Positions 7,870-40,550 of a stretch of DNA of 44,086 nt are shown in pieces. Numbering within the stretch: the stretch's first letter is position 1; every line of letters begins with the position of its first letter. Origin of the DNA: a phage; the NCBI GenBank assembly GCA_021132495.1, contig GCA_021132495.1_4335.1; one strand, given 5' to 3'. Below the pieces are notes generated by a model that had not been told where the DNA came from, made no database searches, and saw only the letters and a program-made list of their open reading frames with translations. A program made the position numbers and the translations under genes.

Positions 7870-10041
7870 ATGAGTTACCTGTTCTTAGACTTTGAAACAT
7901 TCTCAGAAGCCGATTTGAAGAAAGTCGGTTCTTACGCTTACGCCGAACACCCGTCAACCGAAGTGCTTATCTGTACATATGCTTTTGACGACGAACCTGT
8001 GCGGGTATGGGATTGCACCGACGGCAGCGACATGCCGGGGGATTTACACCGCGCACTGCGCCGCCTTGTTAAGCCCAACAGCCGCATCAAGATGGTGTGG
8101 CACAACGGTGGACTTTTCGATCGCCTAATCATGAAACACTGCTGGGACTTTGATATTCCGGTAAGTAACACCATTGATACTATGATTTGGGCGTTCCGTC
8201 ACGCGCTGCCGGGTTCTCTTGATGCGCTGTGCGAAGTGCTGGGCGTGTCTGCAGACAACGCGAAAGATAAACGCGGCAAGGCTCTGATTAAGCGTTTCTC
8301 TAAACCGACGCCGAAGAACTACAAAATCCGCCGCTACACCGCAGAAACTCACCCTGACGAGTGGGCGATGTTCATCAGGTACGCCGTGAGCGACATCACT
8401 GCGATGCGTGAAGTCTTCCATAAGCTGCCGCGTTGGGGTAACTCCGAGTTCGAAGACCGTGTACTGGAACTTGACCAGTTAATCAACGACCGCGGATTTA
8501 AGGTTGACGTCGCACTGGCGGAAGCCGCGATTGAAGCCGTAGAGAAGCACAAGGCACAGTTACAGGAAGAAGCTCAACGTAAATACGGCGGCTCGCTTAC
8601 CGGTAAAGACTTCCTTCCGATTCTGCGTGAACTTGCGCCCGCGCACCGCATACACAATGCACAGAAGTCGACGCTTAACGACCTGTTGGCAGATTATGAT
8701 TTACCGGACGACGCCCGGATGATTATCGAAATGCGCCTCGGGGCCGCGTCAACAGCGTCCACGAAATATAACCCGCTGCTGTTAGGCCGCTCGTCGGACG
8801 ACCGACGCCGCGGTTGTATCCAGTACGGTGGGGCAAAGCGTACGTTACGGTTCGCGGGTAAAGGCTTCCAGCCACAGAACCTGGCGCGTGGGTACTATCA
8901 CGATGATGAACTGGATAAAGGCATTTCAGCGTTACTTAAGGGCCGGGCGCACCGCCGATTTGACGTAGCCAAGCTAACGGCATCGACCGTTCGTAGCTGC
9001 ATCATACCGGAAGCAGGGCATAAGTTTGTCGTTGCCGATTACTCTAACGTCGAAGGCCGCGGTCTTGCGTGGCTGGCGGGTGAAGACGATTTAATCGAAG
9101 TATTTGTAAACGGGGTTGATGTGTATAAGAAACTCGCATCAACGGTGTTCAATGTTGCATATGAAGCCGTAACAAAGGACCAAAGACAAATAGCCAAAGC
9201 AATGGTTCTGGGACTCGGCTACGCGGGGGGCGTCGGTGCTTTCGTCACGTTTGCTAAAAACTTAGGTCTTGATTTGAATGACATGACTAACACTTTAGAC
9301 GGTACATTCCCGGACCATATTTGGGCCGCTACCGCACGCGGATACGAATGGGCGCGTATTCAGGAAGCCAAGCGACCACCACGTCCTGGTGAAAAAGATG
9401 ACCGACCCTCATATATCCTTGATAAGAAAGTTTGGCGCACCTGTGACGCTTTAAAGCGCATGTACCGGGAAGCTAATCCTGCAATAGTCCAATTCTGGCG
9501 CGATATTGAAGACGCAGCTATGGCAGCAATCCGTAATCCGGGGAAAGAGTTCACCGCTGGCCCTCGCGGGGTTAAGTTTTCTCGCAACGTAGAAACAGAC
9601 AACAACGGCAACAAAGTCGCGGGTTGGTGGTTGCGCATGACGTTGCCGTCAGGTCGCGTTATGTCATACCCGGGCGTCGGGTTGAGCGTGTCAAAAGAGA
9701 CAGACGAAGACGGAAAAGTTTCTACTAACGTGCGCATCAAGTATCAGGGCGAAAATCAGTTAACCAGGCAGTGGGGCTTCCAGTACACCTACTCCGGTAA
9801 ACTGGTGGAAAACTGCACTCAGGCACTGTGCCGTGATTTGCTGGCTAACGCCCTGCTGAACGTAGAGGCAAACGGCTACCCTATTGTGCTTCATGTACAC
9901 GATGAGATTATCTGCGAGACACCTGATTTACCGGAATACAATGTTGCAGAGCTTGAGCGGTTGATGTGTGAATTACCGGAATGGGCGGAGGGGTTCCCTC
10001 TTGTAGCAGAAGGTAGCGAAATGTACAGATACGCCAAGTAG
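7870..10041 (+). CDS. family A DNA polymerase with 3'-5' exonuclease domain
   Basis: 723 aa; exo motif FLDFETFS; polymerase motifs DYSNVEGR (A), KAMVLGLGYAGG (B), HVHDEI (C). Confidence 0.9.
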   Translation: MSYLFLDFETFSEADLKKVGSYAYAEHPSTEVLICTYAFDDEPVRVWDCTDGSDMPGDLHRALRRLVKPNSRIKMVWHNGGLFDRLIMKHCWDFDIPVSNTIDTMIWAFRHALPGSLDALCEVLGVSADNAKDKRGKALIKRFSKPTPKNYKIRRYTAETHPDEWAMFIRYAVSDITAMREVFHKLPRWGNSEFEDRVLELDQLINDRGFKVDVALAEAAIEAVEKHKAQLQEEAQRKYGGSLTGKDFLPILRELAPAHRIHNAQKSTLNDLLADYDLPDDARMIIEMRLGAASTASTKYNPLLLGRSSDDRRRGCIQYGGAKRTLRFAGKGFQPQNLARGYYHDDELDKGISALLKGRAHRRFDVAKLTASTVRSCIIPEAGHKFVVADYSNVEGRGLAWLAGEDDLIEVFVNGVDVYKKLASTVFNVAYEAVTKDQRQIAKAMVLGLGYAGGVGAFVTFAKNLGLDLNDMTNTLDGTFPDHIWAATARGYEWARIQEAKRPPRPGEKDDRPSYILDKKVWRTCDALKRMYREANPAIVQFWRDIEDAAMAAIRNPGKEFTAGPRGVKFSRNVETDNNGNKVAGWWLRMTLPSGRVMSYPGVGLSVSKETDEDGKVSTNVRIKYQGENQLTRQWGFQYTYSGKLVENCTQALCRDLLANALLNVEANGYPIVLHVHDEIICETPDLPEYNVAELERLMCELPEWAEGFPLVAEGSEMYRYAK

Positions 10042-10073: not shown

Positions 10074-10109
10074 ATACCGATATAATGGCTATGTCGGTAT
10101 TTTTTTTTT
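10074..10109 (+). terminator. intrinsic terminator (ataccga ... tcggtat + T9)
   Basis: 7-bp stem, 13-nt loop, nine consecutive T after the polymerase gene. Confidence 0.65.
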
Positions 10110-39687: not shown

Positions 39688-39879
39688 TCACCCCACTATC
39701 TCATCACCAAGCCACGCCGTTTCCCGTATATAGTCAACCACACAGGCGGCGTGCTCGCAGCTAATTGCAAAAATGTAGAAGCTAAACTTCTTCCCGTCGG
39801 CGTCGATGTGGTTAACCGAGTAAGGTTTCCACATGACCACATCGATAACTACTGGCTCAGGCGCTTTCATGCCCGTCAC
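39688..39879 (-). CDS. hypothetical protein (63 aa)
   Basis: ORF track. Confidence 0.4.
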   Translation of the reverse strand: MTGMKAPEPVVIDVVMWKPYSVNHIDADGKKFSFYIFAISCEHAACVVDYIRETAWLGDEIVG

Positions 39880-40057
39880 CAGGGGCTTTGTTCAGGTTGA
39901 AGCGGTTGATCAGTTCGCGGCGACGCTCCATAAGGATATCCACCCATTGTGCGTGATGTTTAATCCTGGCATCTAGGACCGCTATTTCGCTTCTGACTTC
40001 GTTTGTTTTGCCCTTTGCGGCCTCTACCATCATCTTTTCGTAGTCACGGTCAGTCAT
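39857..40057 (-). CDS. hypothetical protein (66 aa)
   Basis: ORF track. Confidence 0.4.
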   Translation of the reverse strand: MTDRDYEKMMVEAAKGKTNEVRSEIAVLDARIKHHAQWVDILMERRRELINRFNLNKAPGDGHESA

Positions 40058-40214
40058 TCTTTACGCCCCCCCCCCACATGCGATTGAGATACTTGTTCTT
40101 GTCCGGCCCCGGGAAACTGTTACGTTTCATTAGTTCCTCACGTGTCGGGAACGGGGTGTGGCTGACTTTACGGCCTACTCGTAATGGTTGGCTTACTTGA
40201 CCTTGTTCGCTCAT
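40050..40214 (-). CDS. small hypothetical protein (54 aa) containing a G10 homopolymer in its coding sequence
   Basis: Manual ORF with RBS aggaga; C-terminus WGGGVKND encoded across the homopolymer at 40066-40075. Confidence 0.35.
   Translation of the reverse strand: MSEQGQVSQPLRVGRKVSHTPFPTREELMKRNSFPGPDKNKYLNRMWGGGVKND
40066..40075. repeat. C10/G10 homopolymer tract
   Basis: Ten consecutive C on the plus strand inside a coding region. Confidence 0.9.
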
Positions 40215-40359
40215 TTCTTCTCTCCTGCATAAGCTGCTTTCAGTGCCTGCATCGCGGCGGCCCAGAACGCGTCGGCCGGGATATTACCGCTAAGGTTACC
40301 AACGGCGATGCGTGCCATCAGTTGCGCGTCTTCGAATGCTTCGGTATCTGTGATTTTCA
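40211..40359 (-). CDS. small hypothetical protein (49 aa)
   Basis: Manual ORF; stop overlaps the next ATG. Confidence 0.3.
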
Positions 40360-40518
40360 TTTCCCAAAAACCCCTTTAGTTTTCAGATTATTGCGATAGA
40401 ACTGCATCACATGTTCATTATGGAAGTTACTCATCTTCTCTACTCCGTTCTCGTTGTCGATGAGGTAAATATAATAGGGTCGTAGATAATAGTCAACTAG
40501 TCATTACAGAAAATAGAT

Positions 40519-40550
40519 AAAAAAAAATCCCGGCTGGGTCAGGGCCGGGA
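40519..40550 (-). terminator. intrinsic terminator downstream of the lysis genes (tcccggc ... gccggga + T9 on minus)
   Basis: 7-bp GC stem followed by nine T on the minus strand, about 65 nt after the endolysin stop. Confidence 0.65.

What the first reader, a model, noticed from the sequence alone, without database searches (positions are those of the whole stretch)
40066..40075. C10/G10 homopolymer inside a small gene; one extra base would create a canonical overlap with the next gene
As read, the small ORF (40050..40214, minus) runs through G10 and ends 8 nt into the next gene. With 11 G it would end ...WGGGRKE with its TGA overlapping the next ATG in an ATGA junction, the pattern used throughout this genome. 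The tract is therefore either a homopolymer sequencing error or a slippage-prone site that toggles the C-terminus and coupling to the downstream gene.
Basis: seen in the sequence. Interest (0 to 1): 0.4.

Follow-up and report, generated by a model that had tools for sequence, protein, structure and literature searches.

The report
Real, length-variable poly-G tract in phage gene
The run of ten G (C on the given strand) at the very end of a small conserved phage gene is very probably real rather than a sequencing slip, it recurs and varies by one base in related phages, and its length hardly matters, because every reading frame stops within a few bases of the next gene's start.

Summary
C10 lies at 40066-40075 (G10 on the coding minus strand). 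It is the only long homopolymer in coding sequence in this roughly 44-kb Kagunavirus-like genome. It sits 6 codons before the stop of a DUF2737-family gene (40050..40214, minus).

About 50 relatives read GGGGAGAG at this site, giving ...MWGERKE* with an ATGA overlap. The window's G10 is not a one-off error. Exactly G10 occurs at the same site in 9 other independent assemblies, in four other sequence backgrounds. G9 occurs in 4 assemblies and G7 in 1.

Two pairs of near-identical phages differ at the tract by G9 versus G10.

The as-read ending is not anomalous. An 8-nt overlap (ATGACTGA) with a ...KND* tail is a standard configuration in hundreds of relatives. In the window's context every tract length stops at -3, +4 or +8 relative to the next ATG. 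Every length also keeps the conserved core (...YLNRMWG) and Shine-Dalgarno-like pairing.

Best reading: a genuine, slippage-prone poly-G tract born from a G-rich Shine-Dalgarno/Trp-Gly motif, in a spot where frame does not matter. It is probably near-neutral and not a demonstrated switch. Interest is modest.

The parts
40066..40075 (-). G10 homopolymer (C10 on the + strand). It covers the last two bases of Trp47, then Gly48, Gly49 and the first two bases of Gly50. It replaces the GGGGAGAG motif of relatives.
   Evidence: The same tract is G10, G9 or G7 in other assemblies.
40050..40214 (-). DUF2737-family gene, 54 aa as read, ending ...YLNRMWGGGVKND*.
   Evidence: Pfam PF10930 at 38.4 bits against a cut-off of 25. 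phrog_4684 at E 1.9e-32, aligned over residues 1-48 only. The exact protein is in NCBI as UGI01101.1.
40054..40057 (-). ATGA that would be the stop/start overlap if the tract were G8 or G11. This is the canonical junction in most relatives.
   Evidence: In KMB36 the annotated CDSs are 617-775 and 772-960.
40050..40057 (-). ATGACTGA: the 8-nt stop/start overlap actually used with G10. The same overlap serves the ...RKND* relatives.
39857..40057 (-). Downstream 66-aa gene (MTDRDYEKMM...) of unknown function. The G tract lies 8 nt upstream of its ATG and occupies the place of the GGAG Shine-Dalgarno of relatives.
   Evidence: phrog_1402 at E 5e-24. Predicted anti-SD pairing is -11.0 kcal/mol for G8-G12 against -8.5 for GGGGAGAG.
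40211..40360 (-). Upstream 49-aa gene of the same operon, joined to the DUF2737 gene by an ATGA overlap.
   Evidence: phrog_2180 at E 6.6e-25.
40468..40496 (-). Promoter-like site (TTGACT, 17-nt spacer, TATATT) ahead of the small-gene operon that holds the tract.
   Evidence: This is a consensus match only.

Best explanation
The G10 is a genuine poly-G tract in the phage DNA, and 10 is most likely the true modal length for this genome.

It arose from the ancestral G-rich motif GGGGAGAG. That motif encodes Trp-Gly-Glu at the extreme 3' end of the DUF2737 gene and also supplies the GGAG Shine-Dalgarno of the next gene. Origin was by A-to-G transitions; the intermediates GGGGAGGG and GGGGGGAG exist in relatives. 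Once the run was uninterrupted it became prone to replication slippage and expanded to about 9-10 G (inferred).

It persists because the site is insensitive to frame:
- The conserved protein core ends at ...YLNRMWG.
- In this context all three frames terminate at -3, +4 or +8 nt from the downstream ATG.
- A G run still pairs with the anti-Shine-Dalgarno sequence.

Length changes therefore alter only the last 2-5 residues and leave translational coupling essentially intact (inferred from sequence, not measured). On this reading the tract is a near-neutral hypermutable by-product rather than a regulatory switch.

Shown here: the tract's presence, its recurrence, its +/-1 polymorphism and the consequences for each frame. 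Inferred: the slippage mechanism, neutrality and the direction of evolution.
For: Recurrence of the tract:
- G10 at the homologous site in L156 (Logan ERR10028490), L157 (ENA MEGAHIT), L165-167 (three SRR runs) and L168-170 (three ENA assemblies).
- G9 in L159, L160, L161 and L171.
- G7 in L173.

Length polymorphism between near-identical genomes:
- L157 (G10) versus L159 and L161 (G9): 3 SNPs plus the tract in 1.9 kb.
- L171 (G9) versus L165 (G10): 0 SNPs in 2.9 kb. The only other difference is T10 versus T9 in a terminator.

Intermediates:
- GGGGAGGG in L162-164 and L172, and GGGGGGAG in L048.
- The window's gene body is only 2/135 nt from L162, which carries GGGGAGGG. From there one synonymous GGA-to-GGG change gives G8.

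Separate backgrounds: the poly-G haplotypes differ from each other by 7-14 of 135 nt and have three different 3' contexts.

Frame tolerance:
- Simulated G6-G14 tracts all stop at -3, +4 or +8.
- Natural relatives use both ...RKE* with ATGA and ...RKND* with an 8-nt overlap.
- A lineage seen on 135 contigs uses the shifted ...WGCVKNET* frame.
- Profile matches stop at residue 48.

Assembly quality: there are no isolated homopolymer frameshifts against the closest relative over 36 kb.

Analogy: in C. jejuni, G8 tracts mutate mainly by insertion and G11 tracts mainly by deletion, with a modal length of 9 (PMC3401435). That would explain convergence on 9-10.
Against: - No reads are available, so the G9/G10 differences between sibling samples could be PCR, sequencing or assembly noise. 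The co-varying T9/T10 run fits that as well as it fits biology.
- Neutrality is inferred, not measured.
- Neither G8 nor G11, the canonical frame, was seen among about 15 poly-G contigs. That is mildly odd if all frames are equivalent, although with about 5-6 independent lineages the chance is roughly 0.1.
- Poly-G alleles are absent from IMG/VR and JGI contigs. None of the 512 matching GenBank phage records has the ...WGGGVKND end, although that search would not have picked up G9-type ends.
- The alleles were found only in SRA- or ENA-derived assemblies and in this record.
- The C. jejuni analogy involves a different replication and repair background. These phages encode their own family A DNA polymerase.
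Confidence: 0.6

Rival explanations
1. The tract is a contingency locus: a selected, reversible poly-G switch. Slippage would change where the upstream ORF terminates (3 nt before the next ATG, or overlapping it by 4, 8 or more nt) and would change the DUF2737 tail. This would diversify expression of the downstream early or accessory gene(s) in the phage population as bet-hedging.
For: The tract recurs at exactly this site in at least 5 haplotype backgrounds and 3 different 3' contexts, and converges on 9-10 G. Near-identical genomes differ by +/-1. In other contexts the frame change is larger: the ORF runs 35 nt into the next gene in L156 and 50 nt in L173. Phage poly-G and SSR switches have precedent: Campylobacter phages (Sorensen et al. 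2021, Cell Rep 35:109214, cited in PMC10877375) and T2/T4 contingency loci (preprint PMC12633550).
Against: In the window's context no tract length truncates the conserved protein core or moves the stop more than 8 nt past the next ATG. Predicted SD pairing and local mRNA structure are unchanged from G8 to G12. The allele is rare, about 15 contigs against more than 700 contigs with the canonical motif among the listed cluster members alone. The neighbouring genes have no known function, so no selective agent can be named.
Confidence: 0.15
2. This record has a homopolymer length error. The true tract in this phage would be G11 or G8 (canonical ATGA junction) or G9, and the called 10 would be a consensus or polishing mistake.
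For: Runs of 10 are the hardest length to call on most platforms. Sibling-sample assemblies disagree by one base at this tract and at a T9/T10 run. G11 or G8 would give the majority-type ...RKE* with an ATGA junction.
Against: Nine other independent assemblies give exactly 10. Exact-sequence look-ups did not find the G11 product for two haplotypes, nor the pure-G7, G12 or G13 products for the window's haplotype; a pure-G8 tract was not seen either, since the ...WGGRKE product that was found is encoded by GGGGAGGG. The window has no other isolated homopolymer indels in coding sequence against a 96-98% identical relative. The as-read junction is a normal one for this family.
Confidence: 0.15
3. 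The tract is a recoding site. A -1 ribosomal frameshift on G GGG GGG, or insertion of one G by RNA polymerase stuttering, would restore the canonical ...GGGRKE* product and the ATGA junction from a G10 template.
For: G GGG GGG formally fits the X XXY YYZ pattern. A -1 shift inside the run gives exactly MWGGGRKE*, the same product as G11 (derived).
Against: Most relatives lack the tract. The other poly-G alleles (G9, G10+AG, G10+AAG, G7) would each need a different direction or size of shift. The two products differ by only 3-4 terminal residues. G-rich A-site codons and G/C runs are poor slippery sequences by general knowledge, which was not tested here.
Confidence: 0.04

Closest known systems
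Hypermutable poly-G tracts of Campylobacter phages (Fletchervirus/Firehammervirus; Sorensen et al. 2021, Cell Rep 35:109214, as cited in PMC10877375)
   Same: A poly-G run of about 9-10 inside a phage coding sequence, with +/-1 length variants between otherwise identical genomes.
   Different: In those phages the tracts sit within receptor-binding and other genes, where a frameshift switches the protein on or off and changes phenotype. Here the tract is 6 codons from the stop of a tiny gene of unknown function, and no frame truncates the conserved part. The host and the replication machinery are also different.
Phage contingency loci / SSRs in coliphages T2 and T4 (Gomez, Barrick and Waters 2025 preprint, PMC12633550)
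   Same: A homopolymer of 6 or more bases in a coliphage gene, with DNA-polymerase slippage proposed as the source of +/-1 variants.
   Different: Those are mostly A runs, and a frameshift in them gives null alleles under defined selection (agt, rIIA). No phenotype or selection is known here, and the predicted effect of a shift is minimal.
Bacterial phase-variable polyC/G tracts (for example C. jejuni; Bayliss et al. 2012, PMC3401435)
   Same: Tract lengths cluster at a mode of 9-10. Length-dependent insertion and deletion bias offers a mutational explanation for that convergence.
   Different: Those tracts lie in 5' or central coding regions and give ON/OFF expression. C. jejuni lacks mismatch repair, whereas this phage grows in E. 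coli with its own Pol I-type polymerase.
Canonical DUF2737 / downstream-gene junction of Kagunavirus and Jerseyvirus relatives (GGGGAGAG-CGTAAAGA-ATGA)
   Same: The same gene, the same position, the same downstream linker and start codon, and the same operon layout.
   Different: Relatives have an interrupted 8-nt G/A motif containing a GGAG Shine-Dalgarno. The window has both A positions as G plus 2 extra G, which shifts the frame to the alternative ...KND* stop.

Membership tests
Pfam DUF2737 (PF10930), for the ORF that holds the tract | Score above the Pfam gathering threshold | tested here: met
   38.4 bits against a cut-off of 25, E 1.2e-9. phrog_4684 at E 1.9e-32. Homologues are precomputed as PF10930.
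Contingency locus / phase-variable simple-sequence repeat | Uninterrupted homopolymer, long enough to slip (about 7-8 or more G/C), within or just upstream of a gene | tested here: met
   G10 lies inside the ORF and 8 nt upstream of the next start codon.
Contingency locus / phase-variable simple-sequence repeat | Tract length differs between otherwise near-identical genomes or within a population | tested here: inconclusive
   G9 versus G10 between assemblies with 0-3 SNPs over 1.9-2.9 kb. There are no read data, so a technical origin cannot be excluded. Heterogeneity within a population is not testable here.
Contingency locus / phase-variable simple-sequence repeat | A length change switches a gene product on or off, or clearly alters its function | tested here: not met
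   In the window's context all lengths from G6 to G14 keep residues 1-48 and stop at -3, +4 or +8 from the next ATG. Predicted SD pairing and mRNA folding are unchanged. This is a sequence-level test only.
Contingency locus / phase-variable simple-sequence repeat | High-frequency reversible switching, measured, with a selective benefit | not testable with these tools
   Requires passage experiments and deep sequencing.
Programmed -1 ribosomal frameshift site | Slippery heptamer conserved among relatives, with both frames' products conserved | tested here: not met
   About 50 relatives have GGGGAGAG, not a slippery run. The other poly-G alleles would need different shifts.
Sequencing or assembly homopolymer artefact | Tract or length unique to one record, not reproduced in independent data, accompanied by other homopolymer errors | tested here: not met
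   G10 is reproduced in 9 independent assemblies. The window has no scattered homopolymer indels against its closest relative. The exact length in this particular record still cannot be verified without reads.

The most novel reading that the evidence does not exclude
The poly-G tract is a positively selected contingency locus of E. coli siphophages (Kagunavirus). It would have evolved repeatedly at the DUF2737/next-gene junction. Slippage among G9, G10 and G11 would tune termination-reinitiation, and hence the dose of the downstream small early or accessory proteins. The result would be heterogeneous progeny that hedge against host defences.
Probability: 0.1. Interest if true: 0.55.

Novelty: new member of a known kind. 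Interest (0 to 1): 0.3.

Why it matters
For annotation, the tract should not be "corrected" to G11. The as-read gene end is legitimate and is reproduced in independent data.

Biologically, it is a small but clean example of how a homopolymer is born. An interrupted G-rich Shine-Dalgarno/Trp-Gly motif loses its interruptions by transitions and then expands to a common length of 9-10. This happened in several phage backgrounds, at a site where frame is irrelevant.

Such a frame-tolerant tract could serve as a natural, selection-free reporter of slippage rates for the phage-encoded family A polymerase. That bears on the recent claim that coliphage SSRs act as contingency loci. If the tract did prove to modulate the downstream gene, it would extend poly-G phase variation from Campylobacter phages to enterobacterial siphophages. 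Nothing here shows that.

Tried and rejected
- JGI metagenome scan for ATCGCATGT+G7: 69 hits, all unrelated chance matches. One (L131) even had G10 but no homology.
- IMG/VR scans for G6 or longer, and G7 or longer, with this flank. They found only the G6AG allele (L048/L084) and an unrelated ...NRMWGGT* gene with G7 (L175).
- The 'plasmids' and 'E. coli genomes' collections gave no match, so the source record could not be inspected.
- tblastn of the C-terminal 29 aa against 512 matching GenBank phage records found none with the ...WGGGVKND end. This test cannot see G9 alleles.
- Exact protein look-ups for G7, G8, G11, G12 and G13 products on the poly-G haplotypes were all absent. The ...WGGRKE hit proved to be GGGGAGGG, not G8.
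- mRNA folding with the canonical motif and with G8-G12 showed no change in start-codon accessibility. A structural switch was therefore dropped.
- Programmed frameshifting was considered and rejected because it is inconsistent across alleles.
- A two-colour Illumina poly-G artefact was considered and rejected by reasoning. The sequence continues in register after a 2-nt insertion and is assembled from both strands in several pipelines.
- A + strand function for the C10 was considered. Only a 65-aa ORF antisense to conserved genes is there, and it was not pursued.

Full report
**What is there.** The window is a Kagunavirus-like (Guernseyvirinae) siphophage genome. Its best whole-genome relative is vB_EcoS-22664BS2, at about 96% identity over 84% of the 24-kb query.

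At 40066-40075 the + strand reads C10. On the minus strand, which carries the genes here, the sequence is ATG TGG GGG GGG GGC GTA AAG AAT GAC TGA. This is the end of a 54-aa ORF (40050..40214) whose stop lies 8 nt inside the next ORF (39857..40057).

The run is a strong outlier. No other C run exceeds 5 and no G run exceeds 6. About 0.035 C runs of 10 or more are expected by chance.

The only other long homopolymers are intergenic. A9 at 40519-40527 is the T-tail of a hairpin terminator after the endolysin gene. T10 at 10100-10109 lies just upstream of a GGAG-ATG start.

The ORF is a bona fide gene. It matches Pfam DUF2737 at 38.4 bits against a cut-off of 25. It also matches phrog_4684 at E 1.9e-32. 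Homologous DNA is present in 443 GenBank phage records.

**What relatives have at the site.** In 54 related loci (IMG/VR plus three GenBank phages) the site reads ATGT-GGGGAGAG, followed by CGTAAAGAATGA, CGTAAAAATGACTGA or AAGAAATGA.

Two endings are standard in the family:
- ...MWGERKE* or ...MWGEKK*, with an ATGA stop/start overlap.
- ...MWGERKND*, with the 8-nt overlap ATGACTGA. Examples are P0005, P0013, P0015, P0028 and P0058.

The window's 8-nt overlap and ...KND* end are therefore not anomalous. A Jerseyvirus lineage seen on 135 contigs has a 7-nt variant, GGGGGTG, giving ...WGCVKNET*. That is the same shifted frame as the window.

Relative to GGGGAGAG, the window has both A positions as G plus two extra G. 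G8 or G11 would be in the canonical frame.

**The tract is not a private error.** The protein search returned the window's exact product, P0001. It is held in NCBI as UGI01101.1, labelled as an E. coli plasmid protein, and also in an ENA metagenome assembly. Other products with Gly-rich tails were returned as well.

Fetching their DNA gave the following tract lengths:

| Tract | Loci | Source |
|---|---|---|
| G10 | L156 | Logan ERR10028490, 44.8-kb contig, different downstream gene |
| G10 | L157 | ENA MEGAHIT contig, 45.4 kb |
| G10 + AG | L165-167 | three SRR runs |
| G10 + AAGAAATGA | L168-170 | three ENA assemblies |
| G9 | L159, L160, L161 | Logan SRR4096735 and two ENA assemblies |
| G9 + AG | L171 | Logan SRR18356622 |
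| G7 | L173 | Logan SRR14297772 |

Two comparisons are especially telling:
- L157 (G10) differs from L159 and L161 (G9) by 3 SNPs plus the tract in 1.9 kb.
- L171 (G9) differs from L165 (G10) by no SNP in 2.9 kb. The only other difference is T10 versus T9 in the terminator.

Exact-sequence look-ups for the G11 product on two haplotypes found nothing. Look-ups for the G7, G12 and G13 products on the window's haplotype also found nothing. A ...WGGRKE product that was found turned out to be GGGGAGGG, not G8.

The window itself shows no scattered 1-nt homopolymer indels in coding sequence against its closest relative over 36 kb. It is therefore not a homopolymer-noisy assembly.

**Origin.** Both single-step intermediates exist:
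- GGGGAGGG, giving ...WGGRKE or ...WGGKK, in L162-164 and L172.
- GGGGGGAG, in L048.

The window's gene body is only 2/135 nt from L162, which carries GGGGAGGG. From that allele a single synonymous GGA-to-GGG change gives an uninterrupted G8.

The poly-G haplotypes differ from each other by 7-14 of 135 nt. They have three different 3' contexts, and one retains the final AG. The tract therefore either arose more than once or has been moved by recombination. The junction is a mosaic boundary: at least seven different downstream genes follow the same linker.

Convergence on 9-10 G has a precedent in C. jejuni. There G8 tracts mutate mainly by insertion and G11 tracts mainly by deletion, and the modal length is 9 (PMC3401435). 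This is an analogy only. These phages replicate with their own Pol I-type polymerase.

**Consequences of tract length.** I simulated G6 to G14 in the window's context. The products are ...WGGA* with the stop 3 nt before the next ATG...VKND* with an 8-nt overlap, and ...RKE* with an ATGA overlap. Profile matches to the family end at residue 48, the Gly after Trp. Only the non-conserved tail changes.

In relatives the motif contains GGAG about 10 nt upstream of the next ATG, presumably its Shine-Dalgarno sequence. The G run keeps or improves predicted pairing with the 16S 3' end: -11.0 against -8.5 kcal/mol, with G·U wobbles. Predicted local mRNA structure and start-codon accessibility do not change with tract length.

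In other backgrounds the shifted ORF runs 35 nt (L156) or 50 nt (L173) into the next gene. This shows that the phages tolerate even that.

**Interpretation.** The best reading, at confidence about 0.6, is a real, slippage-prone poly-G tract that is nearly neutral because of where it sits. G10 is the true modal length.

Rivals:
- A selected contingency switch (0.15). Recurrence supports it. The lack of any predicted on/off effect and the allele's rarity count against it: about 15 poly-G contigs against more than 700 canonical contigs among the listed cluster members.
- A length error in this particular record (0.15). This cannot be excluded without reads, but nine independent G10 calls argue against it.
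- Recoding by ribosomal or transcriptional slippage (0.04). It is inconsistent across alleles.

**Comparison with known systems.** The tract works like the homopolymeric tracts of contingency loci. Examples are the poly-G tracts of Campylobacter phages (Sorensen et al. 2021, cited in PMC10877375), the T2/T4 SSRs (PMC12633550) and bacterial polyC/G tracts (PMC3401435).

It fails the defining functional criterion of those systems. No frame truncates the conserved core or moves the stop more than 8 nt past the next start codon, so no on/off effect is predicted. I file it as a new member of the known kind "hypermutable homopolymer in a phage gene". I do not file it as a demonstrated phase-variable switch.

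**Verdict.** Novelty is modest and interest is about 0.3.

Noticed in passing
window 40357-40434 (-): A 25-aa [28 protein letters not shown], is the first gene of the small-gene operon. It matches phrog_6763 'activator of host PrrC lysyl-tRNA endonuclease', a T4 Stp-like peptide, at E 5e-20. Finding a T4-type anti-restriction peptide in a Kagunavirus may be worth a look.
   Followed up: no
window 40519-40549 (-); L165/L171: An intrinsic terminator follows the endolysin gene: hairpin cccggc...gccggg plus T9. Its T run also varies in length: A8 in vB_EcoS-22664BS2, and T9 versus T10 between the otherwise identical L165 and L171.
   Followed up: partly
window 10100-10109 (+): A T10 run lies in the intergenic gap after the 723-aa ORF (7870..10041). 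A possible 7-bp hairpin precedes it, and GGAG-N8-ATG of the next gene follows it. It is the second 10-nt homopolymer in the genome.
   Followed up: partly
window 40054-40065 (-) and loci L001-L051: The linker CGTAAAGAATGA after the DUF2737 gene is a mosaic boundary. At least seven unrelated downstream genes follow it in relatives, starting MTDREYEKMM, MRRKPLPKVGDSW, MKKLIADVELGDV, MKHLRYDCIGAYYA, MIYVRPGEWRCWNC, MTDVKPGSLYAAKT and MKSKMKMMVR.
   Followed up: partly
whole window: The window's exact DUF2737 protein is deposited in NCBI as UGI01101.1, 'DUF2737 family protein (plasmid) [Escherichia coli]'. A lytic-type Kagunavirus genome therefore appears to have been deposited as a plasmid of an E. 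coli isolate, which could reflect a carrier state or contamination. No match was found in the PLSDB or complete E. coli genome collections.
   Followed up: partly
L158 (ENA ERZ27235459), L019, L031, L046; proteins P0022, P0017, P0039: The same site carries many other small indel alleles in relatives: GGGGAGGGGAGAG, GGGGGAG, GGGAGAG and GGGGGTG. Some products are extended or fused with the downstream gene. The last few codons of this gene are a general indel hotspot under weak constraint.
   Followed up: partly
L175 4199-4215 (IMGVR_UViG_3300036783_000306): An unrelated phage contig has a gene ending ...RWRNRMWGGT* with a G7 run at the equivalent Trp-Gly-Gly codons. This suggests that the NRMWG motif itself predisposes to G runs.
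   Followed up: no
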